64,000 nt of DNA. It comes from an uncultured Spirochaetota bacterium. GTDB lineage: Bacteria; Spirochaetota; Spirochaetia; SZUA-6; Fen-1364. The notes beneath the pieces were generated by a model. The model was not told the origin of the DNA. It worked only from the letters and a program-made list of their open reading frames with translations, and ran no database searches. The position numbers were made by a program, and so were the translations under genes. This document shows, piece by piece, positions 13,952 through 50,118 of this stretch (within the stretch, counting starts at the first letter, position 1; each line of letters begins with the position of its first letter). The stretch is from the NCBI GenBank assembly GCA_963734545.1, contig CAVTHO010000009.1:244151-308150 (forward strand), given 5' to 3'.

Positions 13952-14005
13952 ATTGTAACTTTTAGCTAGCGAATTTACATTTATGTAGGTTCGCCGGAGG
14001 TGGGC

Positions 14006-15577
<1,572 letters not shown>

Positions 15578-22105: not shown

Positions 22106-22900
22106 TCAGTCCATGTAGTAGCCGCCGTTGATGTTGACGGTTTCCCCATTGATGAACGCGGCGTCGTCGGAGGCGAGAAAGCAGATGAGATGCGAGATGT
22201 CCTCCACCGTCCCGAGCCTGCGCACCGGAATGGACGCCGCCGCCTTCGCCTTCTTCTCATCGGTCCAGTATTTCATCATTTCCGTCATGACCGCATGCGG
22301 GAGCAATGGCATTGCAGGTGACGCCGAACTGCCCCAGCCGCCGGCCGACGGACCGGGTCAGGCTGATGACCGCCCCCTTGCTCGCTCCGTACACGAAGAC
22401 CGTGGAGTTGTCACCGTTCTTGCCGGTGATGGAAGAGACATTGACGATGCGCCCGTACTTCTGGTCCTTCATGATGGGGGTGGCGGCGCGGATGGCGTAC
22501 AAAATGCCCTTCACATTGATGTTCAGGGTCCTGTCGATGATGTCGTCCGTCGTTTCCTCGATGGTGCCGGGAAGCAGCAGTCCCGCGTTGTTCACGAGGA
22601 TGTCCAGCCGCCCGAGCTCGTCTTTTGTGCGCGTGATCAGCATGTCGACCTGCGCGCGGTCCTGGATGTCGCACGCGATCACCATGACCTTGCCCGCGCC
22701 GCCGACCCGGATTGCGCCGCCGGACCGGCGGATTTTGCGTCGCTGCGGATCAGGGCGGCGGTTTCCTCCAGGCCGGCCGCGTCGATGTCGGTGATCACCA
22801 CGGCCGCGCCATCCCGGGCCATTTCCCGTGCGGTCGCCTGTCCCATCCCTTTTGCCGCGCCTGTGATGATCGCGGCCCTTCCCTCGAATCGTGCACCCAT
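22106..22900 (-). CDS. short-chain dehydrogenase/reductase (FabG-like); frame changes near 22715 and 22305
   Basis: MGARFEGRAAIITGAAKGMG (TGxxxGxG), LVNNAG, SSITG...VYGASKGAV (YxxxK), and the C-terminus VEDISHLICFLASDDAAFINGETVNINGGYYMD. Split across ORFs 22679..22900, 22257..23264 (C-terminal part) and 22106..22312. Confidence 0.8.
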
Positions 22901-22942: not shown

Positions 22943-23740
22943 CTAGTACGCGCCGGTGCTCTTCTGGCCGCTCACAAGGAGGACGCCCGAGCTTGTTCCC
23001 AGACGCGTCGCCCCGGCCCCGATCATGGCAACGGCATCCTCGAAGCTGCGCACGCCTCCGGCTGCTTTGACGCCCATGGTCGGGCCGACAATGCGGCGCA
23101 TGAGCGCAATGTCCGCGACCGTGGCCCCGCCCTTGTTGAATCCCGTGGAGGTCTTCACGAAATCCACGCCCACCTCTTTGGCGATCTGGCAGGCAAGGAC
23201 CTTTTCCTCGTCGGTGAGCATGCAGGTTTCCAGTATCACCTTGAGGAGAATGCCCATTCGGCACGCCCGGCGCACTGCAAGCATGTCCTCCCGCACCGTC
23301 TTCAGATCCCTGGCCTTCATGGCGCCCACGTTCATCACCATGTCGATCTCACCGGCGCCGTTGGCGACGGCCGTCCGCGCTTCGAAGCTCTTCACACGGC
23401 TGTCCATGGCGCCGAGTGGAAAGCCGACAACAGCGCACACTTTCACTCCGGTTCCCCCCAGGCGCCGCGCGCAGTGCTCCACCCACCGGGAGTTCACGCA
23501 TACCGAATAGAAATGATGCTCCGCTGCCTCGGCGCACAGCGTGGTGACCTGCTCTTCCGTGGCCTCGGGCTTCAGCAGCGTATGGTCGATATACCGCGCA
23601 AGATCCGAGGGCCGGAGATCGGAAGTGCGGGGAGCCTGAGCCGCCATGTGCGTCTCCTCTGCCGGGGACTTTGCTCCCTGCATGCCCAGGCGCGCCACGA
23701 CCTCCGCCACGATTTTCTCGATCAACTGGTTCTGGTCCAC
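22943..23740 (-). CDS. deoC: deoxyribose-phosphate aldolase (DeoC/DERA family) with ~45-aa N-terminal extension resembling a BMC encapsulation peptide
   Basis: The core begins [42 protein letters not shown] (Schiff-base Lys region), VKAAGGVR. The GTG start at 23740 lies 9 nt after the BMC-H stop. The extension is [31 protein letters not shown]... Confidence 0.9.
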
Positions 23741-23749
23741 TATTCTGCC

Positions 23750-24055
23750 CTATTTGGCGGACGATTGCCGCCCCAGGGGCAGGGCCGCGTCCACTGACTC
23801 GTGCGGCCGCGGGATCACGTGGGTCGTCACGATCTCCCCCACCTTCTCCGCCGCGCGCGCCCCCGCGTCCACCGCTGCCCGGCAGGCCGCTACGTCACCG
23901 CGCACGATGGCTGTCACGTACCCGCCCCCGATCTTCTCGTATCCCACCAGGTCGACCTTCGCAGACTTCACCATCGCGTCCGCCGCTTCCACCATCGCCG
24001 CGAATCCGCGCGTCTCGATCATGCCCAGCGCTTCAAAACTCACGTTGTCCGCCAT
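23750..24055 (-). CDS. bacterial microcompartment shell protein, BMC-H (PduA/EutM/CcmK family, Pfam00936-type)
   Basis: [85 protein letters not shown]... is collinear with PduA along its whole length. RBS AAGGAAGGG lies upstream. Confidence 0.95.
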
Positions 24056-24131
24056 ATATCCCTTCCTTGCTCTCTCAACGGCTCTCGCCGTCTGCTTCGC
24101 AGCCGCCCTCCCGGCGCGCAGCGCGCGCGAT

Positions 24132-25175
24132 TCATTTCCCGGGCTTCACGACGGCCTTGAACACCGATTGATGCTTGAGGTCTTCGAATGCCTGGTCGAT
24201 CTGCTCGAGAGGGTACTGGCGCGTGATGTAGGGCCGGGGATCGAGATCTCCCGAGGCGATCCAGCCCATTGTCTTTCGATTCTGCGCCGGCGTCGACGCG
24301 TGCACCCCGTGCACGGAGAGCTCCTTGTAATGGATGAGGTTGCTGTCCAGAAATCCCGTGGTCTCTTTTGCCAGCCCGCCGAACAGGCTGATCCTCCCGC
24401 GCTTAGCCGCAAGGGCAACAGCGTCGGACTGCGCCTGGCCCACGGGGCAGGCGGTGATCAGAACATCCACGCCCCTCCCATCCGTCAGCCGCTTGATTTC
24501 CGCGTGGAGATCGACTCTGCCCGATGCTATGGGAACGGCGAAAGGCACCAGGCGCATGGCCTCGCGCAGTCGGCTCTCATTCGGCTCGATAATGACGATC
24601 GGCTCCGCGCCCTGCATCCGGGCGAGCTCCGCGTGCATGCACCCGATGAAGCCCGATCCGAAGATCGCGACAGATTCCCCCTTCTGGATCCGCAGAAACT
24701 CCTGACCGTTGGCGACACAGGCAATCGGCTCGGCGAGCGCCGCCACCTCGTCGGGAACCCCGGCGGGAGTCGCATACACGTTTCCCCGGTCAAAGGCAAT
24801 CGCCGGGACCTCCATGTATTCGGCGAATCCCCCGTCGAACTGGAATCCGATGGTCTGGAGGCTCTCACACAGGTTCGTGTAGCCGCGGCGGCACGCGTAG
24901 CAGGTGCCGCACCCGATGGCCGGCGCCATCGAGATCCTTTCACCGAGCGAAAATCCCTTCCGGTCAGGACCGATCTCGACGATCTCTCCGCACAGCTCAT
25001 GTCCCGTCACGCGCGGGGGGGAGATCCTCTCATTGCCGAACTGCCAGGTCCGGAGGTCCGTTCCGCAGACGGAACAGGCAAGGACGCGGATCACCGCGCT
25101 GTCCGCCCGCGCGTGAGGCTGTGGATAGTCGCCCATCCGCATCGCCCCGGCCTTCTCGTACACGTATGCTCTCAT
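24132..25175 (-). CDS. zinc-dependent medium-chain dehydrogenase/reductase (sorbitol/threonine dehydrogenase-like)
   Basis: MRAYVYEK start at 25175. [20 protein letters not shown], the structural-Zn cluster [15 protein letters not shown], and GSGFIG (Rossmann). Confidence 0.85.
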
Positions 25176-25188
25176 CCTGCGGCCTCTT

Positions 25189-26372
25189 TCAATCTCCCAT
25201 GAGGGCATCAAGGCGCTGCCCGTCACGGGGAACCCACTGTCTCCAATACCTCACCGATTCCTCCAGAGCCGGCAGAATGTCCCTCTTCGTGTCGGTGGTG
25301 CGCACGAAAATTTCGAACGTCAGGTAGATCTCCTCACAACGCGGCGGAAGTCCCGGCAGAGGCTCCCCCTCATAGGACCGCGCAATTGCCTGGAGCACTT
25401 TCGCGGGATGCACGATACCCCCCAGGTTGTTCTCCGGTGTGAACGGGAGATGCGGTGACGACAGTCCGTCCGTCTGCTGCAGATGGACGATCGGGGAGTA
25501 GCATCCGATCCTCTCGAGCCAGCCATAGAGATCGCAGTCGGCCGGAGAGGCGAACAGGTGGGGGTACCGATTCATCTCCGTTTCGATGCGCGCAACGGCT
25601 TCCGTTCCTGCTCCCCCGCCGCGGCGCCTGTCATCCCTGAAGATCTTGAAAGCGGACTCGGGACCGAGCCAGGGCTCGGGTAATCCTCCCCACAGCGCTT
25701 TCCGAATCGTCGCCGCGTCAGGCCGGAGGAACAGCCGCTGTCCGGTCTGGTGCCCGGTGTCCATGGCCACGTACGCACGGGCCCGCCCCGCCGCGTCACC
25801 TCCCGCATGTAGCGCTCCGTGCCGGCAATCGTCCACGGCGGCTGGTGCGGCGTGTACATCTGTTCGAGGACGATCGGAATCGGTCCCTGCTCGTGCGCGA
25901 ACCGGGCCACCTCGGCGAGCTCGTCGTAGAGGATCTCCTCCGCGGCGGCATAGGCGGCGGGATCCTGCAGGGCGCTCTCCGAAATGGCATGGATGAAGAA
26001 GCCGGCGCCCGCTTTGACCGTCGAAGCGATCCTGATCATCACCTTCAGCCAGTCATTGACGATCCGCGCGCGCACACGGGGATCCGGGTGGGCGAGACCG
26101 AGTGTGCGGTACGTGGTGTACCCGGTATAGAAGTTCGCCACCCGCAGGCCCTCCGCCTCCACGGCTTTGCGCACGTCCGTGATCCATTCCGAGAGGTATT
26201 CGAAGCCGCAATAGAAGGGGTCCGCCTCGGTGTCCGCGCTCGCCTCCACGAAGGACACACCCAGCTCGCGGATGATCTTCGCCCACTCGGAGGGTCGGGT
26301 CCATCGTTTCGTCGCGAAGGAGTTGTCCATCGCCAGGTAGATCCGGGGATACTTCGTCACGCTCTGCTCCAT
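25189..26372 (-). CDS. xylose-isomerase-like TIM-barrel sugar (phosphate) isomerase/epimerase; one frame change near 25800
   Basis: MEQSVTKYPRIYLAMDNSFATKRWTRPSEW...GVSFVEASADTE...FFIHAISE... is in ORF 25572..26372. The reading continues as AAGRARAYVAMDTGHQTG...HLQQTDG... in ORF 25189..25836. The specific substrate is unknown. Confidence 0.65.
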
Positions 26373-26384
26373 TTCTTTCCCGGG

Positions 26385-27881
26385 CTATCGGCCCACGACG
26401 TCCAGATATTTTCCGAAAGCCTCGTCCCACGGCGCCTTTGCGTGCGGCTCATAGAAGACGACTTCGGATGACCGCAGGGAAATCTCCCGCCCCTGCGCCA
26501 GCGTCGTGATCTCGCCGTCGTGCTTCAGCTGCATGAGCAGGTTTCCCATCGAAGTGGTCTCCGGGGGCCCCGCCATCACCGGGATGCCGGTGGCATCGGC
26601 CGTCCACTGGCACAACATGCGGTTCTGGATCCCTCCTCCCACGAGGTGGAGCAGGTTCAGCCTTTTCCCGGTGAGCCGCTCCAGGGTTTCCATGTTCTGG
26701 CGGTATTTCAGCACCAGGCTCTCGTACACCGAACGGGCCACGGCCCCTCTCGATCCCGCGAGCCTCTGGCCCTTCTTTTCGCAATAGCCGATGATGACCC
26801 CCGGCATGTCCGCCTGGGGGAGCGCGAACGCCGGATCGTCCACGTCGATGAAGGCTGTCGCGGATCCCGCCTTCTCCGATTCCCCGACGATCTGGTCCCA
26901 GGCGATCTCGGCGCCGTCCGCGGTCCAGCTCTGGCGGCACTGCTGGATGATCCACAGGCCGGTAATGTAGTTCACGAGCATGTTGCGGCCGTCCGCGATC
27001 GCGTTGTTTCCGTAGCCGGACTCGAACGCCGCGTCCGTCACGATGGGCCGGGGCGTCTCGATGCCGGCGATCGACCAGGTCCCCATGGAGATGAACGCCC
27101 AATGCAGGGAGGGATCGGCCACCGGGATACCCGTGACCGCGGAGGCGGTGTCATGCGTCGCGGGCGCGACGACGGGAACCGGTGAAACCGCCAGCTCCTC
27201 GCACACCTGGGGCTGCAGGGGCCCGACGAGGTCCCCGGGCATGACGATTTCTCCCAGCATCGAATCGGAAATGCCCAGACGTGCCAGGATGCGTTTCTCC
27301 CAGGTCCGCGCGTCCTGGTTGCAGAGCAGCGACATTGTTGCGTTGGTGTACTCGTTGACCGCCCGGCCCGTGAGCAGGTAGTTGAGCAGGTCCGGGATCA
27401 TCAGCAGCCGATGGCCGCTGGCGAGCTCGGTAGCGTGGTCGCAGCGGAATGAGTAGAGCTGGTAGAGCCCCATGATGCCCATGGTGGAACCGGCACAGAG
27501 CTGGAACAGCTCGCGGCGGGGGAGCTCCTTGTACAGCAGGGGGATGCGCTCGTGACGCAGCGCTTCCCGGTAGGTCACCGGGTTGGCCAGGAGCCTGCCA
27601 TTACGGTCGATGAAGCCGAAGTCGCAGCCCCACGTGTCGATGCCGAGGGAGATCACATCCGGGTATTTCCGCAGGGAGACCTGGAGGCCGATCTTGAGCT
27701 CCGAAAAGAGACGGAGGATGTCCCAGTAGAGCGTGCCGGCCGCGATGACGGCCCGATTGTCGAAGCGGTAGGTGACATCCATGGTGACGCGCGCGCCGTC
27801 GAAACCGGCGACAATGGCCCGTCCATTGCTCGCTCCGAAGTCGAAAATCAGGTAGTGCTTCACCGCCACGGCCGCCTCCAA
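26385..27881 (-). CDS. FGGY-family carbohydrate kinase, rhamnulokinase-like
   Basis: HYLIFDFGASNGRAIV, GIDTWGCDFGFID, ATHDTASAV, ISMGTWS, HLVGGGIQNRMLCQWTADATG. The TTG at 27881 is the ORF-track start; the GTG at 27869 sits 5 nt after GGAGG and may be the true start. Confidence 0.85.
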   Translation of the reverse strand: MEAAVAVKHYLIFDFGASNGRAIVAGFDGARVTMDVTYRFDNRAVIAAGTLYWDILRLFSELKIGLQVSLRKYPDVISLGIDTWGCDFGFIDRNGRLLANPVTYREALRHERIPLLYKELPRRELFQLCAGSTMGIMGLYQLYSFRCDHATELASGHRLLMIPDLLNYLLTGRAVNEYTNATMSLLCNQDARTWEKRILARLGISDSMLGEIVMPGDLVGPLQPQVCEELAVSPVPVVAPATHDTASAVTGIPVADPSLHWAFISMGTWSIAGIETPRPIVTDAAFESGYGNNAIADGRNMLVNYITGLWIIQQCRQSWTADGAEIAWDQIVGESEKAGSATAFIDVDDPAFALPQADMPGVIIGYCEKKGQRLAGSRGAVARSVYESLVLKYRQNMETLERLTGKRLNLLHLVGGGIQNRMLCQWTADATGIPVMAGPPETTSMGNLLMQLKHDGEITTLAQGREISLRSSEVVFYEPHAKAPWDEAFGKYLDVVGR

Positions 27882-27973: not shown

Positions 27974-28249
27974 CTAGAAAGGGGCGCTCGACCGCCGGCG
28001 GATGTATATCTCGTCTATCGCCGCCGTCGGGGAGAGAGAGAGGAGGAAGAGCACGGCATCCGCGATGTCCTCCGGTCTCATGAGCGCGGAGCGATCGATA
28101 TCCGGGCGCAGGGCCTCCATCAAGCGCGTATCCACTCCCCCCGGGAGCACGGCGGACACGCGGATCCCGTGCGGCTGCGCTTCGGCGGTGCCGATCCCCC
28201 TGCCCGCCCCTGTCACGAGCGCAACCTGTCCGGAAAGATCCGTCTTCAC
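27974..28249 (-). pseudogene. short-chain dehydrogenase remnant with large in-frame internal deletion
   Basis: The 91-aa ORF joins the SDR N-terminus (LSGQVALVTGAGRGIG) directly to the SDR C-terminal region (HGIRVSAVLPGGVDT...PEDIADAVLFLLS). The ~140 residues carrying the NNAG and YxxxK motifs are missing. Confidence 0.7.
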
Positions 28250-29238
28250 GGGGTCTTCCCGCGGAGCAGCTCCCGCGCGGTGCTTTCGTCCGTGATCAGC
28301 ACGTTGATGTACTTCTTCAGCAGGGCCGCGCGAATGGCGTGCACCTTCGACGGTCCTCCGGCCACGCCGATGATCAGCTTTTTCGGATCTCCCATGACGT
28401 CCATGGGGATGCCGATCACCCGGTCGTGGACCTCATCGTCGATGAAGTCACCGTTGGCGTCGAAATAGCGGCACAGGATATCCCCCACCGCGCCCTTGCC
28501 GATCAGGCGTTGAAGGTCCCCCGGGCTGAGATATCCCATTTTGAAGAGGCTCGCCGACTTGGACGCCTCTCCAATTGAGATGAGCAGCACGTCGGCGCGG
28601 CAGGCAATGTCCAGGACCTCTTTGATCCAGGGCTCGGACTTGAAGACCTCGGCCCGCTCCTTGGTCTGCGCGATGGCCGGCGCCCATATATTATAGAAGG
28701 AGGCATCGAGCTTTCGCGCGATCTTCTCCGCCATGATGTACGGGTTCATCGTCACGTTGATCATGAGGTTCCCGATGAGGCTGACAATCTCGATCTTGCC
28801 GGTGACGAGCTGGGGCTCGAAAAAATCCGCCAGGGACGCGGTCGTGTTCCCCCAGCCGATGCCGAGAACGCATTTCTTCAGCGCGCCGATCTTGCGCTCG
28901 AGGTACGCGGCCCCCGCCATGGCAGCGCCCCGCAGCCGGCGGGAGGGGTCTTCAGAGGCCAGGGGGGCCACCACGGCGTCCTTCAATCCGAACTTCTGCC
29001 GGATTTCAGACTCAATGCTCATCAGGTTCTCGTAGGGATGTTTCAACGTGAACTGGATGATATCGAGGTCACGGGCCTTCTCGAGGAGCCGCTGTACTTT
29101 CTGGCGTGAGAGGGAGACCCGCTCCGCAATCTCCTGCTGGGTCATCTTTTCCTTGTAGTACAGCCACGCGATCCGCGTGATAATGTCTTCCTCGGATTCC
29201 TTGCGCGTGGCCTCCTCTTTTCCCCGGCGGTTTTTCAT
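28246..29238 (-). CDS. SorC/DeoR(B. subtilis)-type sugar-binding transcriptional regulator
   Basis: N-terminal HTH IAWLYYKEKMTQQEIAERVSLSRQKVQRLLEKA. The C-terminal putative sugar-binding domain carries GIGWGNT and VGDILCRYFD. Its stop overlaps the remnant start. Confidence 0.85.
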   Translation of the reverse strand: MKNRRGKEEATRKESEEDIITRIAWLYYKEKMTQQEIAERVSLSRQKVQRLLEKARDLDIIQFTLKHPYENLMSIESEIRQKFGLKDAVVAPLASEDPSRRLRGAAMAGAAYLERKIGALKKCVLGIGWGNTTASLADFFEPQLVTGKIEIVSLIGNLMINVTMNPYIMAEKIARKLDASFYNIWAPAIAQTKERAEVFKSEPWIKEVLDIACRADVLLISIGEASKSASLFKMGYLSPGDLQRLIGKGAVGDILCRYFDANGDFIDDEVHDRVIGIPMDVMGDPKKLIIGVAGGPSKVHAIRAALLKKYINVLITDESTARELLRGKTP

Positions 29239-29684
29239 GTGGTGTGCTGAAGCGCGGACTTCACTATACCTTTCTTCAATATGATGTTCGCGTATATCGC
29301 GCTCTCGCTCGTGGCGAGAATGGCGTACGCCTTCTGCGCCCTTTCGTAGAACGCGAACCGCTCGACCAGCTCGAAATCTGTGAACGCCGGGTCGTGGCGG
29401 CGGATGATCTCGCGGTACTCGTCCCAGATCGCGGTCTTCGCGGTATCTCCGGGCACGACCGCCATGAGCGCCACGGGATGCGGCACATAGGCGTCGAGCG
29501 GGAAGAATCGCATGATCGCGTCCAGCAGGGGCGGCACTCCGTGACCGTCGGCACGCAGGAGGCGGCGGGCCATGCTCGAGGCGGGAAAATTGCCGTCCGC
29601 GATGACGAGCTCGTCGCCGTGTCCCATTGAGAGGAGGACGCTCATGAGATCCGGGGAGATGATTGTCGGAATACCTTTCAACAT
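29235..29684 (-). CDS. fucU: RbsD/FucU family mutarotase (L-fucose mutarotase-like)
   Basis: MLKGIPTIISPDLMSVLLSMGHGDELVIADGNFP... and a 149-aa length are typical of FucU/RbsD. It overlaps the SorC gene start by 4 nt. Confidence 0.8.
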   Translation of the reverse strand: MLKGIPTIISPDLMSVLLSMGHGDELVIADGNFPASSMARRLLRADGHGVPPLLDAIMRFFPLDAYVPHPVALMAVVPGDTAKTAIWDEYREIIRRHDPAFTDFELVERFAFYERAQKAYAILATSESAIYANIILKKGIVKSALQHTT

Positions 29685-30206: not shown

Positions 30207-30358
30207 GAAGAATCGCATCGCTGTATCCAGCGGGGTACGGCGAGACGCTGCGGCCCATTGACAGGAGGCGGAAAATAGTCTTGTGATATGATCTCTTGCA
30301 TAAACATGCACGCGATGTGGATCGGGGGCGCACTGCCAGGTGCGAAAAGGAGAGCCAT

Positions 30359-32323
30359 ATGCTGGAACTGAGAAAAGGCGCTGACATCCTGGCCGAAGGA
30401 GGAGGCGTCAGGACTCTCGTGGACGCCGAGGCGGTCTTTGCGCGCGCGCTGGATTCGGCCGGCCGCGAGAAGCTCCAGGCAATCCACACCCCGGACGCCC
30501 TTCTGCGCATCGCGAATGCCATTGCCCTGTGCGCCCCCGCGAAGGTCTTCGTGATAAGCGGCTCACGCGAGGACGCGGCTGAATGCCGCCGCATGAGCCT
30601 GGACGGCGGCGAGGAGTGCCCCCTCGCCATGGAAGGACCACACCCTCCACTTCGACCTCCCCGAGGACCAGGGGAGAATGGTGGACCAGACCTACTACAT
30701 CGCCAACGAGGACGAGGAGGTCAGCGTCCTGGCGAAGAAGATGCTCGCGCGCCGAGGCGCTCGCCTACATCCGCGAGCACCATGGGCGGCATCATGAAGG
30801 GCAGGACCATGCTCATCGGGTTCTACAACCGCGGGCCCATCGGCGCCCAGGCGGCCATCCCCGGGCTCATGATCTCCAGCTCCGCCTACGTCCTGCACAG
30901 CGCGAACATCCTCTATCGAAACGTGTTCGACGCAGTTCGACGCGGAGGCGGCGCGCGCGGGGGTGTTCTTCACGAACGTGCACAGCCAGGGAACCAACAG
31001 GTCGGAGGACATTCCCCGGGCGCGCATCTTCATGGACAGGAGCTGGTTCACGACCTTCAGCATGTACTGCACCTACGCCGGCAACACCCTGATGCTCAAG
31101 AAGGGAAACCACCGGTTCGCGGTGGACCTCTGCACCTACTACCGGCGGGAGAAAGAGCTTTCCGAGCACATGTTCATCACGGGGCTGACGGGCCCGAACG
31201 GGAGGAAGACCTTCTTCGCCGGCGCGGCGCCCTCCGGCTGCGGCAAGACCACCACCGCCATGGTCGGCACGGACTACATCGGCGACGACCTTGCGCAGAT
31301 GTGGATCGCGGCGGACGGCACGCTGCGCGCGGTGAATCCCGAGTGCGGCATCTTCGGGATCGTCGAGGACCTCAACAAGGAGGGCGACCCGTACCTCTAC
31401 AAGTGCCTGCGGGAGCCGGGCACGGAGGTGATCTGGTCCAACGTGCTGGTGGACGAGCAGAACGTTCCGCACTGGACGGGCAGCGGCGAGACTCCTCCGG
31501 CGAAAGGGCGAAACTTCCAGGGCGACTGGTGGCCGGGAAAGACGGACAAGAACGGGCAAGCCGGTGCCCATCTCCAACGCCAACGCCCGCATCACGCTCT
31601 CCAACGAGGCAATCGGCAACTACAACCGCGTGATCGCCTCGGATCCCGCCGGGGTGCCCATCAGCGTCATCACCTACAGCGGCCGGGACAGCGACACGAT
31701 GCCTCCGGTGTGGGTGGCGAAGAATCCCGACCACGGCGTGGTCATCGGCGCGTCGATCCTCTCCGCGGCAACGGCAACGGAGGTCGGCGCCAAGGGGGTC
31801 AACCGGCAGCCGTGGGCCAATTCCCCGTTCATCCCCTGCCCTCTCGGGGACTACATGGAGGCGCAGTTCCTCTTCTTCAACTCGAAGAAGTTCTCCGTCG
31901 AAGGGACGACCCCTCATCGCGGGGCTCAACTATTTCCTGCTCGACTGCGCGCGCGGCGGTGACCTGAACAAGCTCCTGGGCGAAAAGCGCGACGTGAGGG
32001 CGTGGCTGTCGTGGCTGGACAGGTACGCGCACGGAGAGGTGAAGGGAATCGAGACACCCATCGGCTTCATACCGCGCTACGAGGATCTGGAAACAGCTCT
32101 TCCGGGAGCAGATCGGCGAAGGAGTACCCGAAGACGCTCTACGAGAAGCAATTCTCCTTCTACGTCGACAACATCCTCGCCCGCATCCAGCTCCAGGAGG
32201 ATGCCTACCGCAAGGAAAAGAAGATGCCCGCGCAGGATCTTCGAGGTCTACGAGGAGCAGAAGAAGGGACTATTGGCGCTGAAGGAGAAGTTCGGCCCCG
32301 TCGTGAAGCCGGACCAGCTGTAG
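30359..32323 (+). CDS. pckG: phosphoenolpyruvate carboxykinase (GTP); about nine +1 frame changes
   Basis: ATG 30359 follows AAAAGGAGAG. VFVISGSREDAAE, HTLHFDLPEDQGR, MLIGFYNRGPIG, P-loop FFAGAAPSGCGKTTTAM, YIGDDLAQMW, NPECGIFGI, VITYSGRDSDTMPPV, PLIAGLNYFL, RAWLSWLDRYAHGE. The pieces lie in ORFs 30296, 30583, 30963, 31564, 31994 and 32002, and in two unlisted frames. Confidence 0.9.
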
Positions 32324-37226: not shown

Positions 37227-40188
37227 ATGAGCGCGGCAAAGAACGTCTATCTATTCGGGGGCGGCAAGGCTGACGGCGACGAGAAGATGAAGAACCTTCT
37301 CGGCGGCAAGGGCGCCAATCTCGCCGAGATGGCGGGCCATTCGGACCTTCGCCTGCCCGTTCCCGCGGGATTCACCATCACCACCGAGGTGTGCAACCAT
37401 TTCTTCAAGAACAAGGGCAAGTATCCCGCCGGCCTCGACGCCGAGGTTGCCGCGGGTTTGAAGCACATAGAGAAAATCATGAGCCACAAGTTCGGGGACC
37501 CGGACAATCCCCTCCTGGTCTCCGTGCGCTCGGGCGCGCGCAAGTCCATGCCCGGCATGATGGAGACGGTCCTCAATGTCGGCCTGAACGAGAAAACGGC
37601 GCAGGGCATCATCAAGTCGACCAATAACCCCCGGTTCGTCTATGACGCGTACCGGCGTCTCATCCAGATGTATTCCGACGTGGTCATGGAAAAAGCGGAA
37701 GGAATCGACCCGGCGGAAGGCCAGGGGATCCGGCAGCAGCTCGAGCGCGAGCTGGACAAGATGAAGAAGGCCCGAGGCGTGAAGCAGGACACCGAGCTCA
37801 CGGCAGAGGATCTGAAACAGCTCATCAGGATCTACAAGTCGAAGGTGCGGGAAGTGCTGGGCAAGGACTTCCCCGAGGACCCCATGGAGCAGGTGTGGGG
37901 CGGCATCCGCGCGGTCTTCCAGAGCTGGAACGGCAAGCGCGCCATTTCCTACCGCCGCATCGAGGGCATCCCCGACGAGTGGGGCACTGCCGTCACGGTC
38001 CAGTCCATGGTTTTCGGAAACATGGGGGATGACTCCGGAACGGGTGTCGCCTTCACGCGCAATCCCGCAACGGGTGAGAACGTGTTCTACGGAGAATGGC
38101 TTCCCAACGCCCAGGGAGAGGACGTCGTAGCGGGCATCCGGACGCCCTACCCCATCAATGAGGCGGGCAAGACCGAGCACACCGCTTCGCTGCCCTCCCT
38201 GGAGAAACAGTTCCCGAAGATCTACTCCGAGCTGCACGCCATCGAGCTTCGACTGGAAAGACACTACCATGACATGCTCGACCTGGAGTTCACCATAGAG
38301 AAGGGCAAGCTGTGGATGCTGCAGTGCCGGGTGGGCAAGCGCAATGGCCCCGCGGCTGTCCGCATGGCAGTGGACATGGTCAGGGAAAAGATGATCGTGC
38401 CCGAAGAAGCGGTCACCCGCATCACGCCGGCCCAGCTCGACGAGCTCCTTCACCCCGTCATCGACCCGGTGAAGGAGAAGGTGACCGCCGTGTTCCTCAA
38501 GGGGCTTCCCGCGGGACCCGGCGGCGCTGTCGGCCAGGTGGTGCTCACGGCCAATGACGCGGTGGAATGGACCAGGCAGGGCAAGAAGGTCATCCTCGTG
38601 CGGGAAGAGACCAACCCCGAGGACGTGGAAGGCATGCGGGCCGCGCAGGGCATCCTCACTGCGCGCGGCGGCATGACCTCGCACGCGGCGCTCGTTGCAC
38701 GCGGCTGGGGCAAGTGCTGCATCGTCGGCGCGGGGGACATGCACGTCGACATGGCGGCGCGGCAGATCAACGTGAAAGGCATCGCGGTCAAGCAGGGAGA
38801 CTGGCTCACCCTCAATGGGAGCAAGGGCACCGTGTACCAGGGCGCCCTGCCGCTCATCAAGGCAGCGGGAGAGAACCCCGACTTCGTGGCCTTCATGGGC
38901 ACATGTGACAAGGTGAAAAAACTCGGCGTGCGCACGAACGCGGACACGCCGGCGGATGCCAAGAAGGCGCGCGAGTTCGGGGCAGAGGGCATCGGCCTCT
39001 TCCGGTTCGAGCACATGTTCTACGGGGAAGGCGCGGACAGGCCGCTGTTCCTCCTGCGGCGCATGATCGTTTCCAAGACCGAATCCGAGCGGCGCAAGGC
39101 ACTGGAAGAGCTGTTCCCCTTCATGAAGGACGACGTGAAGAGGACCATGGAAGTCATGGACGGCCTTCCCGTCACGTTCCGGTTCCTCGATCCCCCTCTG
39201 CATGAGTTCGTGCCCAACCGGCCGGAGGAGAGGCAGCGCCTGGCCACCGACCTCGGAATCTCCGCGGAGGAGTTCAGCAAGAGGGCAGACAGCCTGCACG
39301 AGTCAAACCCCATGATGGGACACCGCGGCGTGCGGCTGGGAATCTCCTACCCCGAGATGACGGAGGTGCAGAGCCAGGCAATCCTCGAAGCGGCCGCGGA
39401 GCTGATCCAGGCGGGGAAGAACGCGCAGGCCCGAGATCATGATCCCCGTCACCTCGACCGTGGTCGAGATCGAAGACCAGAAGAAGCTCATCGAGAAGGT
39501 CTACGAGAAGGTGCTCACCAAGTTCGTGATGCCGAAATCGAAGCTCGCGCTGGTTGTCGGGACCATGATCGAGATCCCGCGCGCGTGCGTGACCGCGGAC
39601 AAGTTCGCCGCGCAGTGCGATTTCTTCTCATTCGGCACAAATGACCTGACGCAGATGGGCTTCGGCTTTTCCCGGGACGACATCGGCGGGTTCCTGCCCA
39701 AGTATCTTGAAAAGAAGATTCTCCCGGCAGATCCCTTCCAGACCATCGACCAGGAAGGCATCGGAGAGCTGATCAGGATGGGCATCGACAAGGGCAGGGC
39801 GGTGAAGCCGACCCTCAAGATCGGAATCTGCGGCGAGCACGGCGGAGAGCCCGAGTCCGTGAAGTTCTGCCACAAGGTGGGTATGAGCTACGTATCCTGC
39901 TCCCCGTACCGTGTGCCGCTGGCCAAGCTGGCCGCCGCGCAGGAAGCGGCAGCGGATCTGCAGAAAGCAAGGGCAAAGCCGGCTGCCCGGCCCGCGGCCA
40001 AGGCTGCCAGGCCCGCCGCGAAAAAGGCGAAAGCAGTGAAAAAAGCGCCTGCAAAGAAGCCGGCCGCGAAGAAGGCCCCTGCGAAGAAGGCAGCGGCAAA
40101 GAAGCCGGCCGCGAAGAAAGCAGCGGCCAGGAAGCCCGCTGCCAGGAAGGCCGTGAAGAAACCGGCAGCCAAAGGCAGGAAGAGATAG
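37227..40188 (+). CDS. ppdK: pyruvate, phosphate dikinase with 78-aa Lys/Ala/Pro-rich C-terminal tail; one +1 frame change near 39428
   Basis: LGGKGANLAEM, phosphohistidine region TARGGMTSHAALVARGWGK, FRFEHMF, MMGHRGVRL, FFSFGTNDLTQ, GICGEHGGEP, SCSPYRVP. After ...AGKNAQ the reading continues (P)EIMIPVTSTVVEIE in ORF 39439..40188. The tail is ...ARPAAKKAKAVKKAPAKKPAAKKAPAKKAAAKKPAAKK... Confidence 0.9.
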
Positions 40189-40275: not shown

Positions 40276-40932
40276 CTACAGCCGATATCCAAAAAGAACC
40301 GCGAGCTCGAAGTCGAGATTGAGTATCGACACGCCGGAGTATCCTGAGTCCCTCAAGAGCGCAATTCCATCTTTCTCCGGTTGGCTGAGCAGCTTATAGC
40401 CGGCGATAAGCTCGGGCCGCACGTAGATCTTCGGCGTGATCGAGATGTCGGCGCCGACACCGCCCTTGATCCAGAACTCGTTCGAGTCGGCCTTCTGCCG
40501 GCCGCTCAGGTCGTTCCCGATCATGTCGGTGCCGGCGATTGTCAGGTCATACTCGACGCCCAGCATCGGAAAGAGCGTGATCCGGCCGATTTTGAAGGGG
40601 AACTTGCCGTAGCCGGCAAACGCCAGGTGTCCCCCGGACAACTTCCTGTCCGACTCGGTCGTGCTCGCGCCGACGCCTGTCACGGTCGTCTTCTGGTACG
40701 CGCCATTGAACATTCGATAGCCGGCTGTGACCTGCAGGTAGGTCAGATCGACAAACGCCATGAAGGTGAATGGAATTCGGGAGGTCAATGTATCCGAGCT
40801 CGATCCGAAGCCTTCGTATTTCCCCACCGTCATTGAGTAGGCACCGTTTGCCCCGATCCCTGCGCTGATATCTATCCCGAACGCGCCGGCCGCCAGACAC
40901 AACAGGGCGAGCACCGCCACCGCCGATTTCAT
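40276..40932 (-). CDS. outer-membrane beta-barrel protein (paralog 1)
   Basis: Signal peptide MKSAVAVLALLCLAAGAFG, alternating hydrophobic beta-strand pattern, Gly/aromatic-rich. By eye, similar along its length to the next gene (shared FMAFVD..YLQ..AGYRM.NG, FWIKGGVGADIS, YVRPE/YIRPE, GYKLLS, FEL.VLFG.RL). Confidence 0.65.
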   Translation of the reverse strand: MKSAVAVLALLCLAAGAFGIDISAGIGANGAYSMTVGKYEGFGSSSDTLTSRIPFTFMAFVDLTYLQVTAGYRMFNGAYQKTTVTGVGASTTESDRKLSGGHLAFAGYGKFPFKIGRITLFPMLGVEYDLTIAGTDMIGNDLSGRQKADSNEFWIKGGVGADISITPKIYVRPELIAGYKLLSQPEKDGIALLRDSGYSGVSILNLDFELAVLFGYRL

Positions 40933-41059: not shown

Positions 41060-41704
41060 CTACAGCCTGATCCCGAAAAGCACAGACAGCTCGAAGCCCA
41101 GGTCGAGCATTGAAACATCAGTGCCGCCGCCGGCCTTGGTGGCATCAACCAGATCGTTTTCGGGCCCGCTGAGGAGCTTGTAGCCGACGATCACCTCGGG
41201 TCGGATGTAGAATTGCGGGCTGACCGATATGTCGGCGCCCACACCGCCTTTGATCCAGAACTCGGTGGCATCGGACAGGTCCTGGCTGGTCATTTTGACA
41301 CCGGCCGATGTCCCGGAGATGGCCCGGTCATATTCGACTCCCACCATGGGGAAGAACGTGATCGGTCCAAGCTCGATGGGGAATTTGCCGTATGCAGCGA
41401 GAGATACATAGTTGACGTTGAGTTCCACATCGGTTTTCCCGACTTCGGAGCCGTCAACGATGGCTTTCATGGTGTAGCCGTTGAGCATCCGATAACCTGC
41501 TGAGATTTGCAGGTAGCCCACGTCGACAAACGCCATGAAGCCAAACGGTATTCCAGTTATGAGCGTTTCCGTCGGAATTCCAGCCTGTGTTGCCTTCAGC
41601 GATGCCATGTAGTAAGACCCGGTTGCTCCGATTCCTACATCGACTGCAAATCCAGTCGCTGCCATGCATGCCAGGACAAGCACTACCAGTATTAGTCTTT
41701 TCAT
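41060..41704 (-). CDS. outer-membrane beta-barrel protein (paralog 2)
   Basis: Signal peptide MKRLILVVLVLACMAATGFA, with the same architecture and motifs as 40276..40932. Confidence 0.65.
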   Translation of the reverse strand: MKRLILVVLVLACMAATGFAVDVGIGATGSYYMASLKATQAGIPTETLITGIPFGFMAFVDVGYLQISAGYRMLNGYTMKAIVDGSEVGKTDVELNVNYVSLAAYGKFPIELGPITFFPMVGVEYDRAISGTSAGVKMTSQDLSDATEFWIKGGVGADISVSPQFYIRPEVIVGYKLLSGPENDLVDATKAGGGTDVSMLDLGFELSVLFGIRL

Positions 41705-47872: not shown

Positions 47873-50118
47873 CTATGCCTTCTTCCGCGCGAAGGTCATC
47901 CAGGTAGCGCGCACGATGAACACGAAGATGACCAGCCCGCCGATACCGAAGATCGTATCCGGCAGGATCCTCAGGTAGTTCAGCAGCTTGATCACGGGCC
48001 CGAGGTGATCTCGGGGCTTCGCGCGTACCAGACGCCGTACGTGATGGCGTAGTAGAGCTGGTAGAATGCGGACGGGCGAAGGCTGAGGAGCATCATGCCC
48101 AGCAGGCCTCCGTTCAGAAGCCAGAACGCCCATTTCAGCAGTCCGCTCGACCACGCCTTGATCGGCACGATGTGGCGCACGGAGAAGAGCATGAGAGCGA
48201 TGGCGAGGATGCCGTAGACCCCGAAGAGCGCCGTGTGCGCGTGCAGCGGAGTGGTGTTCATGCCCTGCGCGTAGTACAGGACGATCGGCGGGTTGATCAG
48301 GAACCCGAACACGCCCGCGCCCACGACGTTCCAGAACGCCACGGCGATGAAGAAGTACACCGGCCACTTGTACGCGTAGTTGCTGCCCCCCGTCTTCAGC
48401 GTTTTCAGGTTCTGCGCCGTCTCGAAACCGAGCAGCGCCAGCGGAACGATCTCCAGCGCGGAGAACACGGCGCCCAGCGCGATGATGGGTGTCGGCGTGC
48501 CTGTCCAGTAGAGGTGATGGAACGTGCCGATCACCCCTGCCCCCAGGTAGAGGAAGATGCTGACGTAGACGACCTTCAGGGCGAACTTCGGCGCTCACGG
48601 CGCCGATGCGGGACAGGATGAAGGCGAGCACCACGGTGGCGAACACCTCGAAGAAGCCCTCCACCCAGAGGTGGACGACCCACCAGCGCCAGTACTCCGC
48701 GTCCGAGAGATCGCTCGACCTGCCGTAGAGCAGGCCGGCCATGTAGAAGAGCGGGATGGCCACCGCGCTGTACAGCAGCACGTGCGTGAGACCGCCGTTG
48801 TCCTTTTCTCCGGGAAGGGCGGGACGGATGGCCCGTACCACCAGCACGAGCCAGATGATCATGCCGACGATGAGCAGGATCTGCCAGACGCGGCCGAGCT
48901 CGATGTACTCATAGCCCTGGTGGCCGAAGAGGAACCCGTTGGAGCCGAACCGGCCCTGGACGGACAGCCACGTTCCCGCCAGGGATCCGAGCACCACGAT
49001 CACCACGGCCAGGAACAACGCCAGGGAAAGGGTCGCCTGTCGCTTCGGCTCCTTGCCCACGAACGGTCCGATGAAGAGACCCGTGGCCAGGAAGCAGGTG
49101 GCGATCCAGAAGATCGCGAGCTGGAGGTGCCAGGTGCGCACCGCCGCGTAGGGCAGGATCTTCTGAATGGGCACGCCCAGGAAGGTCGCGCCTTCGACGG
49201 TGTAGTGCGCGGTCAGTGCTCCCAGCACGACTTGAAGGACGAACAGCGCCATCGCCGTGATGAAATAGGCCAGTGTCGTCTTCTGACTTCCCGTGGGCTT
49301 CGGCTCGCCGAACTTCGTGCACGAGCTGCGCCGAGTAGTCCGCCTTCGTGCATGTAGCGCGCGTAGAGGAATATCGCGCCTGCCGAGGAAAAGGATGAGG
49401 ATGATGACGCTCACGATGGACCAGATCAGGGTGCCGGCAACCGGCTGGTTGCCCACGAGCGGGTCGAACGGCCAGTTGGTCGTGTAGGTGACGTTGTCTC
49501 CCAGCCGATTGGTGCCCGCCGCCCAGGCCAGCCACGCGAAAAAGCTGGTGAGATTGTGGCCCTCGGCGTCCGTCTTGACGATACCGGGCTGCAGCCCCAT
49601 GCGGTCGTTGCCGTCCCGGAAAAGCGCCGTGTAGTACCCCTGGAGGGCGGCAAAGGCCTCGGCCTGCGCGGGAGTGAAAAGGAGCTTGTCGGCCGCCGGG
49701 TCGTAGCGGTTCGTCTTGATCTCCCGCGTGGCCAGCGCGCGCAGCTCTGCCTTCTTCAGATCGCTCCATGGCATCGAGATCTTTCTGCGTGAAGGCCGCC
49801 GCGGCGTTCGCGGTGTAGGCCGGTGAGCCGTGCCCCCACGTACAGGCCCATGCGGTGCAGAAAGTCCGCCGACCAGTCAGGCGCAAGATAGGAGCCGTGG
49901 CCCCAGATGGTGCCCATGTCCTGCCCGCCCCTGCTCAGGTACAGCTTCTGCCCGCTTTTCACGTCGTCGCGGGTAAAGACGGTCTGGCCCGCGGCGGTTG
50001 TCACCGTGCCGGGGATGGGTGGTTTCTCCTGGTGGATCAGATACCCTCCGAAGAGGAGCACGCCGAACGTAACGGCGAGCATGAAGAGTAAAAGAGCACG
50101 CACCTTTGGATTGTTCAT
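47873..50118 (-). CDS. norZ: quinol-dependent nitric oxide reductase (qNOR, NorB/NorZ type); about eight frame changes
   Basis: ATG 50118 follows GGAGG. The N-terminal extension is MNNPKVRALLLFMLAVTFGVLLFGGYLIH...GTIWGHGSYLAPDWSAD. The heme-copper core carries RTWHLQLAIFWIAT, HLWVEGFFEVF, GTFHHLYWTG and HAHTALFGVYG. The pieces lie in ORFs 49756.., 48909.., 47873.. and 47992... Confidence 0.85.

What the first reader, a model, noticed from the sequence alone, without database searches (positions are those of the whole stretch)
23606..24055. Lone BMC-H shell gene followed 9 nt later by a DeoC aldolase with an encapsulation-peptide-like N-terminus
Seen in sequence:
- ORF 23750..24055(-) is an unmistakable PduA/EutM/CcmK-type hexamer protein ([42 protein letters not shown]...IPRPH).
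- Its TAG stop is followed after 9 nt by the GTG of a DeoC whose conserved core only starts around residue 46 ([16 protein letters not shown]).
- Residues 3-19 ([17 protein letters not shown]) have the i/i+3/i+4 hydrophobic spacing of an amphipathic helix. A Gly/Ala/Pro/Ser/Glu-rich linker follows.

Established knowledge: short N-terminal amphipathic helices plus a flexible linker are the targeting signals that load cargo enzymes (for example PduP, PduD, EutC) into bacterial microcompartments.

Inference: this aldolase is BMC cargo, so an aldehyde-generating sugar-phosphate cleavage step is compartmentalised.
Basis: partly seen in the sequence, partly recalled or inferred. Interest (0 to 1): 0.8.

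Follow-up and report, generated by a model that had tools for sequence, protein, structure and literature searches.

The report
Cut-down sugar-phosphate microcompartment operon remnant
A shell-protein gene sits directly in front of a deoxyribose-phosphate aldolase that carries a targeting helix; this pair is what is left of a known microcompartment operon (SPU2 type) after the other eight genes were deleted, so the enzyme class is already-known cargo but this locus alone cannot build a closed compartment.

Summary
ORF 23750..24055(-) is a canonical BMC-H hexamer protein. Nine bases later a GTG starts a DeoC/DERA aldolase, which has a 45-residue N-terminal helix-plus-disordered-linker extension.

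This is not a new kind of cargo. DERA with such an extension is the published signature enzyme of sugar-phosphate-utilising (SPU) microcompartments. In about 60 related Spirochaetota, Bacteroidota and Atribacterota loci the operon is H1-Tdp-H2-P-P-AldDH-P-P-RpiB-DERA (SPU2 type).

The window keeps only H2 and DERA, and no other shell, AldDH or RpiB gene lies within its 64 kb. The same junction occurs in an independent metagenome contig. Close relatives show other stages of reduction:
- H1-Tdp-H2-P1-P3-DERA
- DERA alone with the helix intact
- DERA with a degenerate helix

Since the junction arose, the helix and the sampled part of BMC-H have taken no amino-acid change, while DERA diverged to dS 0.18. 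Both therefore still look selected.

Whether the aldolase is still enclosed depends on pentamer, trimer and AldDH genes elsewhere in a genome I could not reach. I rate it a reduced variant of a known system, of modest interest.

The parts
23750..24055 (-). BMC-H hexamer shell gene, ortholog of the second hexamer gene (H2) of SPU2 operons
   Evidence: PF00936 at E 2e-31. About 80% identical to HO-5815. The N-terminus [11 protein letters not shown] is identical to H2 of L081, and the coding sequence is 93.3% nt identical to H2 of both L081 and L095.
24056..24105 (-). Retained native Tdp-H2 intergenic spacer with ribosome-binding site (AAGGAAGGGA). The left deletion boundary lies just upstream, next to the ADH stop codon.
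   Evidence: blastn homology to L081 runs to window 24105. The alignment shows a shared GACGGCGAGAGCCGTTGAG...AAGGAAGGGA motif.
23741..23749 (-). 9-nt H2-DERA spacer, apparently the remains of the H2-P1 spacer. The DERA start sits where the P1 start would be (right deletion junction).
   Evidence: Alignment with the L095 H2-P1 junction. The same junction, with 1 nt different, occurs in independent contig L012.
22943..23740 (-). Deoxyribose-phosphate aldolase (DERA/DeoC) CDS, 265 aa, GTG start
   Evidence: PF01791. TIGR00126 equivalog at 286.7 bits. PDB DERAs at E 1e-78. D133, K196 and K225 are invariant in 51 homologues.
23681..23734 (-). Encapsulation-peptide-like helix (residues 3-20, [18 protein letters not shown])
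   Evidence: AlphaFold2 helix at 3-20. Conserved in about 70 loci. dN/dS 0-0.14.
23606..23680 (-). Low-complexity Gly/Ala/Pro/Ser/Glu linker (residues 21-45)
   Evidence: pLDDT below 50. Variable length and sequence among homologues. dN/dS 0.3-1.4.
23645..23656 (-). Internal GAGGAG-N6-ATG (Met32): a possible alternative start that would give an aldolase without the helix
   Evidence: Read from the sequence. Present only in the window and L012, not in L007, L010 or L013.
24132..25226 (-). Zn-dependent alcohol/polyol dehydrogenase, immediately upstream of BMC-H in the same operon
   Evidence: PF08240 and PF00107. Colinear with L027 and L007.
25189..26372 (-). Xylose-isomerase-like TIM-barrel gene, split by a frameshift in this assembly
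   Evidence: PF01261 on 25572-26372. Colinear with L027 and L016.
26385..27881 (-). FGGY sugar kinase (rhamnulokinase-like). A sigma-70-like promoter match lies at 27953-27925.
   Evidence: PF00370 and PF02782. TIGR02627 at 350 bits, below its cut-off. Promoter scan scored 10/12.
27974..28249 (-). Remnant of an SDR gene with an internal deletion of about 145 codons
   Evidence: NCBIfam SDR profiles match residues 1-25 to profile positions 1-25, and residues 22-84 to profile positions about 170-234. Only the 3' 244 nt align to the intact SDR of L027.
28246..29238 (-). SorC/DeoR-type sugar-phosphate-binding regulator, also found at the head of canonical SPU2 loci
   Evidence: PF04198 at E 2e-66. 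67% nt identical to the regulator upstream of H1 in L001.
29235..29684 (-). RbsD/FucU mutarotase
   Evidence: PF05025. NF011949 L-fucose mutarotase at 144.5 bits, cut-off 141.
22106..22900 (-). SDR oxidoreductase downstream of DERA. The DERA-SDR pair is conserved in relatives. Here it is read in three frames because of two 1-nt homopolymer indels.
   Evidence: PF00106. Alignment with L012, L007 and L010 shows GGG->GG and CC->CCC.

Best explanation
**What it is (shown).** The pair is a reduced derivative of an SPU2-type (sugar-phosphate-utilising) microcompartment operon.
- In relatives the operon reads H1-Tdp-H2-P1-P2-AldDH-P3-P4-RpiB-DERA.
- Here one deletion removed H1-Tdp but left about 40-50 nt of the Tdp-H2 spacer.
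- A second deletion removed P1 through RpiB. It placed the DERA start codon where the P1 start was, 9 nt after the H2 stop.
- The pair now lies at the end of a sugar-catabolic operon: FGGY kinase, TIM-barrel enzyme, Zn-dehydrogenase, H2, DERA, SDR. A SorC/DeoR-type regulator and a FucU mutarotase lie upstream.
- DERA is a normal class I aldolase with its catalytic Asp and two Lys intact. [quoted passage not shown]
- It keeps the helix-plus-linker extension that marks microcompartment-associated DERAs.

**How it works (inferred).** The helix and the sampled part of the hexamer gene stayed free of amino-acid change after the deletions. The aldolase is therefore most likely still docked through its helix to a lattice built from BMC-H.
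- A closed shell with internal acetaldehyde oxidation would need pentamers, a trimer and an encapsulated AldDH encoded at another site, i.e. a split SPU2 locus.
- Without them, the pair could give at most an open hexamer scaffold.
For: **Family identity**
- Pfam, NCBIfam and PDB matches.
- Published SPU descriptions.

**Canonical architecture in relatives**
- L001-L006.
- About 60 of 80 genome loci.

**Deletion boundaries**
- Homology of all close relatives to the window begins exactly at the DERA start.
- H2 identity and spacer retention.

**The junction is real**
- Contig L012 comes from another metagenome. It carries the same H C-terminus and the 9-nt spacer with 1 nt different.

**Reduction series in the same clade**
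- L013: P-P-RpiB-DERA.
- L096: H1-Tdp-H2-P1-P3-DERA.
- L007: truncated FGGY-DERA. Its FGGY part is 95% nt identical to L094, which reads FGGY-H1-Tdp.
- L010: the last 70 nt of RpiB, then DERA.
- L034, L036, L037, L038: DERA with no shell genes within the flanks held (±10 kb only for L034 and L036) and a degenerate helix, MDQNQKTQKDIGEAPAGLG.

**Selection**
- dN/dS is 0-0.14 for the helix, 0.3-1.4 for the linker and 0.03-0.08 for the core.
- The window and L012 share the junction and differ at core dS 0.18.
- There are 0 differences in 147 nt of BMC-H, against 23.9 expected if neutral (P 4e-11).
- There is 1 synonymous difference in the 54-nt helix, against 8.8 expected (P 0.0015).
- Across the BMC domain, window H2 and L081 H2 differ by 1 non-synonymous and about 19 synonymous changes.

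**Structure and transcription**
- Helix at 3-20, disordered linker, confident barrel.
- No terminator-like site between FGGY and DERA on the minus strand, and a promoter-like site upstream of FGGY.
Against: - No pentamer, trimer, AldDH or RpiB gene lies in 64 kb. The genome is not in the species-representative collection; the best DERA hit there is 79%. A main or split locus is therefore an assumption.
- The clade shows repeated independent loss of the shell block. That fits ongoing loss of the organelle at least as well as relocation.
- The DERA start is GTG and has lost the GGAGG site of canonical loci. An internal GAGGAG-N6-ATG could yield a helix-less enzyme.
- BMC-H between the window and L012 is more similar than even core-like constraint predicts (P 6e-4). 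Recent recombination of that segment would weaken the selection argument.
- L012 covers only the last 48 codons of BMC-H.
Confidence: 0.62

Rival explanations
1. Relic in transit. The organelle has been lost in this organism. DERA now works free in the cytosol as part of the sugar operon. BMC-H and the helix are leftovers that have not yet decayed, or the helix is bypassed by starting at Met32.
For: - At least four different reduced states occur among close relatives.
- Some DERAs lack nearby shell genes and have a destroyed helix. These show the end-point of this path.
- The metabolosome core enzyme AldDH is absent from 64 kb.
- The start is a weak GTG with an AGGG site, and a strong internal GAGGAG-ATG is specific to this lineage.
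- A neighbouring SDR carries a true internal deletion.
- Dwyer 2024 found that the extension makes DERA insoluble when expressed alone. Bypassing it would therefore be advantageous.
Against: - After the junction formed, the lineage diverged to dS 0.18.
- Over that time the sampled half of BMC-H took 0 changes, against about 24 expected if neutral.
- The helix took only 1 synonymous change, against about 9 expected.
- The BMC-H ORF is full length with all interface and pore motifs.
Confidence: 0.25
2. Self-sufficient two-gene scaffold. BMC-H alone assembles into open sheets or tubes. The helix tethers DERA to them, giving a shell-less enzyme lattice rather than a closed organelle.
For: - Purifying selection acts on exactly the two retained interacting parts after the pentamers and AldDH were lost.
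- The two genes are adjacent, 9 nt apart, in one operon.
- Established knowledge, from my own recollection and not tested here: lone BMC-H proteins form sheets and nanotubes in vivo, and encapsulation peptides bind BMC-H.
Against: - No natural example is known to me.
- No benefit is evident for retaining acetaldehyde without closure or AldDH.
- The rest of the genome is unseen, so a complete shell set may exist.
Confidence: 0.1
3. Assembly artefact. The H-DERA junction was created when a long-read assembly collapsed the operon.
For: The window carries many 1-nt homopolymer indels that split genes (SDR, PPDK, PEPCK, qNOR). This points to an error-prone assembly.
Against: - The same junction, with the same 9-nt spacer bar one base, is in contig L012 from a different JGI metagenome. 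L012 differs from the window by 5% substitutions in DERA, with a 27:6 synonymous to non-synonymous ratio.
- Homopolymer indels do not produce clean 3-4 kb deletions that end at start codons.
Confidence: 0.03

Closest known systems
SPU2 sugar-phosphate-utilising BMC loci (Sutter et al. 2021, PMC8217296 supplement; first named SPU in Axen et al. 2014, PMC4207490)
   Same: - The DERA and BMC-H are orthologous to those of loci matching the SPU2 description.
- That description covers Spirochaetes, Bacteroidetes and Atribacteria.
- The enzyme set is only AldDh, pfam01791 and pfam02502.
[quoted passage not shown]
- The head regulator is the same SorC type.
   Different: - The window lacks all BMC-P, BMC-T, AldDH and RpiB. 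Only H2 and DERA remain, fused by deletions.
[quoted passage not shown]
SPU6 DERA of Chloroflexi bacterium GWB2_54_36 (Dwyer, Sutter & Kerfeld 2024, PMC11585597)
   Same: - A catalytically standard DERA with an N-terminal amphipathic helix absent from non-BMC DERAs. It is proposed as an encapsulation peptide and universal SPU signature.
   Different: - The SPU6 extension is about 70 residues, with a helix of about 25-30 residues plus two strands. Here it is 45 residues, with an 18-residue helix and a disordered linker.
- SPU6 DERA forms a complex with RpiB, which is missing here.
HO-type BMC genomes with a distal pfam01791 aldolase bearing an EP-like extension (Sutter 2021 main text)
   Same: - Precedent for an encapsulation-peptide-bearing DERA encoded away from the main shell locus yet proposed to be encapsulated.
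   Different: - In those genomes the main locus is known. Here no main locus has been seen.
- Here one BMC-H travels with the aldolase.
'EUT module' satellite loci (EutABC plus a EutL shell protein) that extend HO, SPU3 or SPU6 BMCs (Sutter 2021)
   Same: - One shell protein plus a signature enzyme encoded together as an add-on to a shell made elsewhere.
   Different: - Those modules look like additions. The window pair is demonstrably a deletion remnant of a full operon.
- The catalogue reports no satellite loci for SPU2.
PduA/PduJ with PduP or PduD N-terminal targeting helices (Fan et al. 2010 and 2011, as cited in PMC11585597)
   Same: - A short N-terminal helix with paired hydrophobic residues every 3-4 positions, followed by a flexible linker, on an aldehyde-handling enzyme next to a PduA-like hexamer.
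   Different: - Binding of this helix to this hexamer has not been tested.
- Pdu loci encode a complete shell.

Membership tests
SPU (SPU2) BMC locus | pfam01791 DeoC-type aldolase (DERA) present with catalytic residues | tested here: met
   PF01791 and the TIGR00126 equivalog both match. D133, K196 and K225 are invariant in 51 homologues. PDB DERAs match at E 1e-78.
SPU (SPU2) BMC locus | N-terminal helix-plus-linker extension on DERA that is absent from non-BMC DERAs | tested here: met
   The extension covers residues 1-45, with an AlphaFold2 helix at 3-20. It is conserved in loci with shell genes. It is absent from second-copy housekeeping DERAs in the same loci.
SPU (SPU2) BMC locus | BMC-H (PF00936) shell protein | tested here: met
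   PF00936 at E 2e-31. Ortholog of H2 in canonical loci.
SPU (SPU2) BMC locus | BMC-P (PF03319) pentamers in the locus. [quoted passage not shown] | tested here: not met
   tblastn with four BMC-P paralogs finds nothing in 64 kb at E below 5.
SPU (SPU2) BMC locus | Aldehyde dehydrogenase (PF00171), present in all curated SPU loci | tested here: not met
   No AldDH hit in the window.
SPU (SPU2) BMC locus | pfam02502 RpiB-type isomerase adjacent to DERA | tested here: not met
   No RpiB hit. In canonical relatives the RpiB stop overlaps the DERA ATG; here BMC-H precedes DERA.
SPU (SPU2) BMC locus | BMC-T (Tdp/Ts) shell protein | tested here: not met
   No Tdp hit in the window. Only about 40-50 nt of the Tdp-H2 spacer survives.
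SPU (SPU2) BMC locus | Descent from a canonical SPU2 operon (orthology and synteny) | tested here: met
   DERA is 88% identical to L013 (P-P-RpiB-DERA-SDR). H2 is 93% nt identical to H2 of L081 and L095. L096 links L095-like shell genes to this DERA type.
Satellite or split BMC locus (Sutter 2021 definition) | A main locus with BMC-H and BMC-P exists elsewhere in the same genome | not testable with these tools
   - Only 64 kb of this genome is available.
- The genome is absent from the species collection; the best DERA hit is 79%.
- Exact-pattern metagenome scans returned nothing.
- Some relatives carry two SPU-type loci: L027 plus L090, L030 plus L040, and the tandem pairs in L060 and L064.
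Encapsulation peptide (functional definition) | The helix is necessary and sufficient to target cargo to a shell or BMC-H | not testable with these tools
   Only sequence, structure-prediction and selection evidence is available.

The most novel reading that the evidence does not exclude
After losing pentamers, trimer, AldDH and RpiB, this lineage may have kept BMC-H plus helix-tagged DERA as a self-sufficient two-gene system. A hexamer sheet or tube would tether the aldolase without enclosing it. That would be a natural 'open' descendant of a microcompartment, maintained by selection.
Probability: 0.12. Interest if true: 0.75.

Novelty: new variant of a known kind. Interest (0 to 1): 0.35.

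Why it matters
- **The cargo idea is already published.**
- **What is new is the comparative picture.** One narrow Spirochaetota clade contains a graded series:
  - the full SPU2 operon;
  - a shell without AldDH;
  - a single hexamer plus aldolase (this window);
  - the aldolase alone;
  - the aldolase with a decayed helix.
- **This makes organelle loss testable.** The series shows in which order parts of a bacterial organelle are lost and which part goes last.
- **It is a natural test of helix function.** The helix degenerates in relatives that have no shell genes in the flanking sequence available.
- **It may interest engineers.** If the hexamer-plus-tagged-enzyme state is functional, it would be a natural minimal scaffold for people who build BMC-H-based enzyme scaffolds.

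Tried and rejected
1. **Exact look-up of the window's BMC-H.** It is not on record in the assembly index.
2. **Two exact-pattern scans of metagenome contigs.** One used a window-specific BMC-H allele and one the H tail plus stop. Both gave 0 hits, so no further contexts for this allele were found.
3. **Genome-collection scan with DERA.** The source genome is not represented (best hit 79%). The key question of other shell genes in the same genome stayed untestable.
4. **Hydrophobic moment as evidence for amphipathicity.** It was unremarkable: 0.33, reached by 28% of shuffles. I rely on conservation, selection and AlphaFold2 instead.
5. **Chimera hypothesis.** The BMC-H is 93% identical to H2 of loci whose DERA is only 56% identical ('type B', with IDHTMLRPEAP). 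I therefore considered a fusion of a type-B H2 to a type-A DERA. I rejected it after L096 showed L095-like shell genes naturally linked to this DERA type.
6. **Frameshifts as pseudogenisation.** I considered that the many frameshifts around the locus mean the operon is decaying. I rejected this because they are 1-nt homopolymer indels. They also split PPDK, PEPCK and a nitric oxide reductase (NorB/COX1-type) gene. Only the SDR remnant at 27974-28249 is a true deletion.
7. **Assembly artefact for the junction.** Rejected because of independent contig L012.
8. **First or second hexamer gene.** The first impression from L094 (H1, 97% aa identity over the core) was superseded. The identical N-terminus, lower dS and shared upstream spacer all point to H2.
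Full report
**1.

ORF 23750..24055(-) encodes a 101-aa protein. It matches the BMC domain PF00936 at E 2.3e-31. It is about 80% identical to HO-5815, the facet-forming hexamer of the solved Haliangium shell. The edge lysine, GGG pore and IPRPH motifs are all intact.

- Its TAG stop is followed by 9 nt and then a GTG at 23740.
- That GTG opens a 265-aa ORF. The ORF matches PF01791 over residues 50-252. It scores 286.7 bits against the NCBIfam deoC equivalog, whose cut-off is 117.3, over residues 47-255.
- Solved DERA structures align only from residue 46/47, so residues 1-45 are an extension.
- AlphaFold2 with 51 homologues gives a helix at residues 3-20, a disordered stretch at 19-37, and a confident barrel from residue 44.
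- The hydrophobic moment of the helix is ordinary. The paired-hydrophobic pattern LIxxIVxxVVxxL is what is conserved.
- tblastn with hexamer, trimer, four pentamer, AldDH and RpiB queries finds nothing else in the 64 kb.

**2. What it is**

The DERA has thousands of homologues. The closest 120 nearly all cover the full length, including the extension. They come mostly from Spirochaetia/Rectinemataceae MAGs.

- The genomic context of a 72%-identical homologue is a complete microcompartment operon. It reads SorC regulator, H1, Tdp, H2, P, P, AldDH, P, P, RpiB, DERA, SDR.
- A scan of one genome per species returned 80 loci. Mapping shell and enzyme genes onto them shows the same ten-gene order in about 60 of them, across Spirochaetota, Bacteroidota, Atribacterota and Moduliflexus.
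- DERA with an N-terminal helix is the proposed universal signature enzyme and putative encapsulation-peptide carrier of SPU microcompartments.

**3. The window carries a cut-down version**

- All close relatives lose homology to the window exactly at the DERA start.
- In canonical loci the RpiB stop overlaps the DERA ATG, and a GGAGG lies about 13 nt upstream. In the window that sequence is replaced by the BMC-H tail, and the start is GTG.
- The hexamer gene is the ortholog of H2, not H1:
  - Its N-terminus is identical to H2 of L081.
  - It is 93.3% nt identical to H2 of both L081 and L095, the same distance that separates those two from each other.
  - About 40-50 nt of the Tdp-H2 spacer, including the ribosome-binding site, is retained upstream.
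- Downstream, the H2 stop and part of the H2-P1 spacer survive. The DERA start sits where the P1 start would be.
- Two deletions therefore explain the arrangement: H1-Tdp, and P1 through RpiB.
- The junction is not an assembly artefact. Contig L012 from a different metagenome has the same H C-terminus and the same 9-nt spacer but for one base. It differs from the window by 5% in DERA, with 27 synonymous and 6 non-synonymous changes.

**4. A reduction series in the same clade**

DERAs 88-96% identical to the window's sit in several different contexts.

| Locus | Context |
|---|---|
| L013 | P-P-RpiB-DERA-SDR (canonical end) |
| L096 | H1-Tdp-H2-P1-P3-DERA-SDR (AldDH, two pentamers and RpiB gone) |
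| Window, L012 | H2-DERA |
| L007 | Zn-ADH, truncated FGGY, DERA |
| L010 | last about 70 nt of RpiB, then DERA |

- The FGGY fragment of L007 is 95% nt identical to L094, where the full kinase is followed by H1-Tdp.
- L007 and L096 share the 28 nt upstream of DERA, so L007 looks derived from an L096-like state.
- In more distant species the full-length DERA has no shell genes within the flanks held (L034, L036, L037, L038; ±10 kb only for L034 and L036). Its helix has decayed to MDQNQKTQKDIGEAPAGLG, with hydrophobic residues replaced by Lys, Thr, Asp, Gly and Pro. In L038 it carries a stop codon.
- This is a natural control. In these relatives the shell genes are absent from the flanks held and the helix has decayed.

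**5. Is the pair still in use?**

- Nei-Gojobori estimates among the window, L012, L007, L010 and L013 give dN/dS of 0-0.14 for helix residues 2-19, 0.3-1.4 for the linker and 0.03-0.08 for the core.
- The informative pair is the window against L012, because both carry the junction and so diverged after the deletion. Their DERA core differs at dS 0.18.
- Over the same period the 147 nt of BMC-H present in L012 took no change. Neutral expectation is 23.9 (P 4e-11).
- The 54-nt helix took one synonymous change, against 8.8 expected (P 0.0015).
- Across the whole BMC domain, window H2 differs from L081 H2 by one amino acid (Ser31, the residue PduA has there) and about 19 synonymous sites.
- On this evidence both parts look maintained by selection after their neighbours were lost.

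Three caveats apply.
- L012 covers only 48 codons of BMC-H.
- BMC-H is more similar than even core-like constraint predicts (P 6e-4). A recent recombination of that segment cannot be excluded.
- The window lineage has a weak start (GTG with AGGG) and a lineage-specific internal GAGGAG-N6-ATG at Met32. That site could produce a helix-less enzyme.

**6. How it most likely works**

*Shown*
- The pair lies at the 3' end of a co-directional gene string: FGGY kinase, TIM-barrel enzyme, Zn-dehydrogenase, H2, DERA, SDR.
- A promoter-like site lies before the kinase, and no terminator-like site lies in between.
- Upstream are a SorC/DeoR-type regulator, a true SDR deletion remnant and a FucU mutarotase.
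- The same block is colinear with L027 of MAG SPRUCE 656. There the Zn-dehydrogenase is followed by H1-Tdp..., and a second, canonical SPU locus (L090) exists in the same assembly.

*Inferred*
- A closed shell, and conversion of acetaldehyde inside it, needs pentamers and an encapsulated AldDH that this locus lacks.
- The options are a split SPU2 locus, an open hexamer scaffold, or a relic.
[quoted passage not shown] Several relatives carry two SPU-type loci.
- I put about 0.6 on 'reduced SPU2 remnant whose two parts are still used together', 0.25 on relic, 0.1 on open scaffold without any other shell gene, and 0.03 on artefact.

**7. Comparison with known systems, and novelty**

- The pair works like, and descends from, SPU2.
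- It fails the locus-level membership criteria (BMC-P, AldDH, RpiB, BMC-T). It should be filed as an SPU2-derived fragment, not as an SPU main locus.
- It resembles 'EUT module' satellites and the distal EP-bearing DERAs of HO-type genomes. Unlike them, it is demonstrably a deletion product.
- The cargo idea is already known. The H2-DERA-only state under selection, and the graded loss series, are to my knowledge undescribed.
- I rate it a new variant of a known kind, with interest about 0.35.

**8. What could not be done**

- The source genome is not in the collections: the best DERA hit in the species set is 79%, the BMC-H is not on record, and exact-pattern metagenome scans were empty.
- The decisive question of other shell genes in the same genome therefore remains open.
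- The many frameshifts in the window are 1-nt homopolymer indels. They also split PPDK, PEPCK and a nitric oxide reductase (NorB/COX1-type) gene. They reflect assembly quality, not gene decay.

Noticed in passing
window 22106-22900, 25189-26372, 30296-32323, 37227-40188, 47873-49774, 14000-15577, 53647-55153: Many genes are split by frameshifts. In the one case checked against relatives (the SDR at 22106-22900) both are 1-nt homopolymer indels (GGG->GG, CC->CCC). This is typical of an uncorrected long-read assembly. ORF calls in this window should be treated accordingly.
   Followed up: partly
window 27974-28249 (-): A 91-aa SDR remnant in which the Gly-rich NAD motif is joined directly to the C-terminal third. 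About 145 codons are missing compared with the intact gene in L027. This is a true internal deletion next to the SorC regulator.
   Followed up: partly
window 39439-40188 (+): The C-terminal piece of pyruvate phosphate dikinase ends in a Lys/Ala/Pro-rich tail of about 80 residues (AKPAARPAAKAARPAAKKAKAVKK...). It weakly matches the histone H1-like HC2 family (E 7e-5, below the cut-off). This is an unusual appendage on a central metabolic enzyme.
   Followed up: no
L034 10001-10765, L036 10001-10765, L037 4120-4884, L038 5690-6367: These DERA orthologs have no shell genes within the flanks held (±10 kb only for L034 and L036). They keep MDQNQ, but the following helix positions are replaced by polar or helix-breaking residues (KTQKDIGEAPAGLG). 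L038 has an in-frame stop. This looks like decay of the targeting helix after loss of the organelle.
   Followed up: partly
L076, L081, L088, L090-L093 versus the window and L013: There are two DERA types in Spirochaetota SPU2 loci: core motif [11 protein letters not shown] versus IDHTMLRPEAP, only about 56% identical. Yet they carry almost the same N-terminal helix ([19 protein letters not shown]...). The helix is far more conserved than the enzyme it is attached to.
   Followed up: partly
L060 1-10660 and L064 1-10669: Two SPU-type loci lie in tandem on one contig. The first lacks AldDH and H1 (Tdp-H-P-P-P-P-RpiB-DERA). The second is complete and has an extra BMC-H before AldDH.
   Followed up: no
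L092 3-993: Another non-canonical junction: the end of a BMC-Tdp gene is followed about 60 nt later by a helix-bearing DERA of the second type.
   Followed up: no
L027 2590-10186 (MAG SPRUCE 656), with L090 in the same assembly: A rearranged locus colinear with the window: FucU-SorC-SDR-DERA-FGGY-TIM-ADH-H1-Tdp... Here DERA lies upstream of the kinase instead of after the shell genes. The same MAG also has a canonical second-type SPU locus.
   Followed up: partly
window 23750-23896 versus L012 1-147: The BMC-H segment is identical between the window and L012, although the adjacent DERA differs by 5%. This is fewer changes than even strong purifying selection predicts (P 6e-4). It suggests extreme codon constraint or a recent recombination of this segment.
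   Followed up: partly
window 40276-40932 (-) and 41060-41704 (-): Two adjacent paralogous genes of about 215 aa with signal peptides, no Pfam match (one was tested) and sequences that look like beta-barrel outer-membrane proteins.
   Followed up: no
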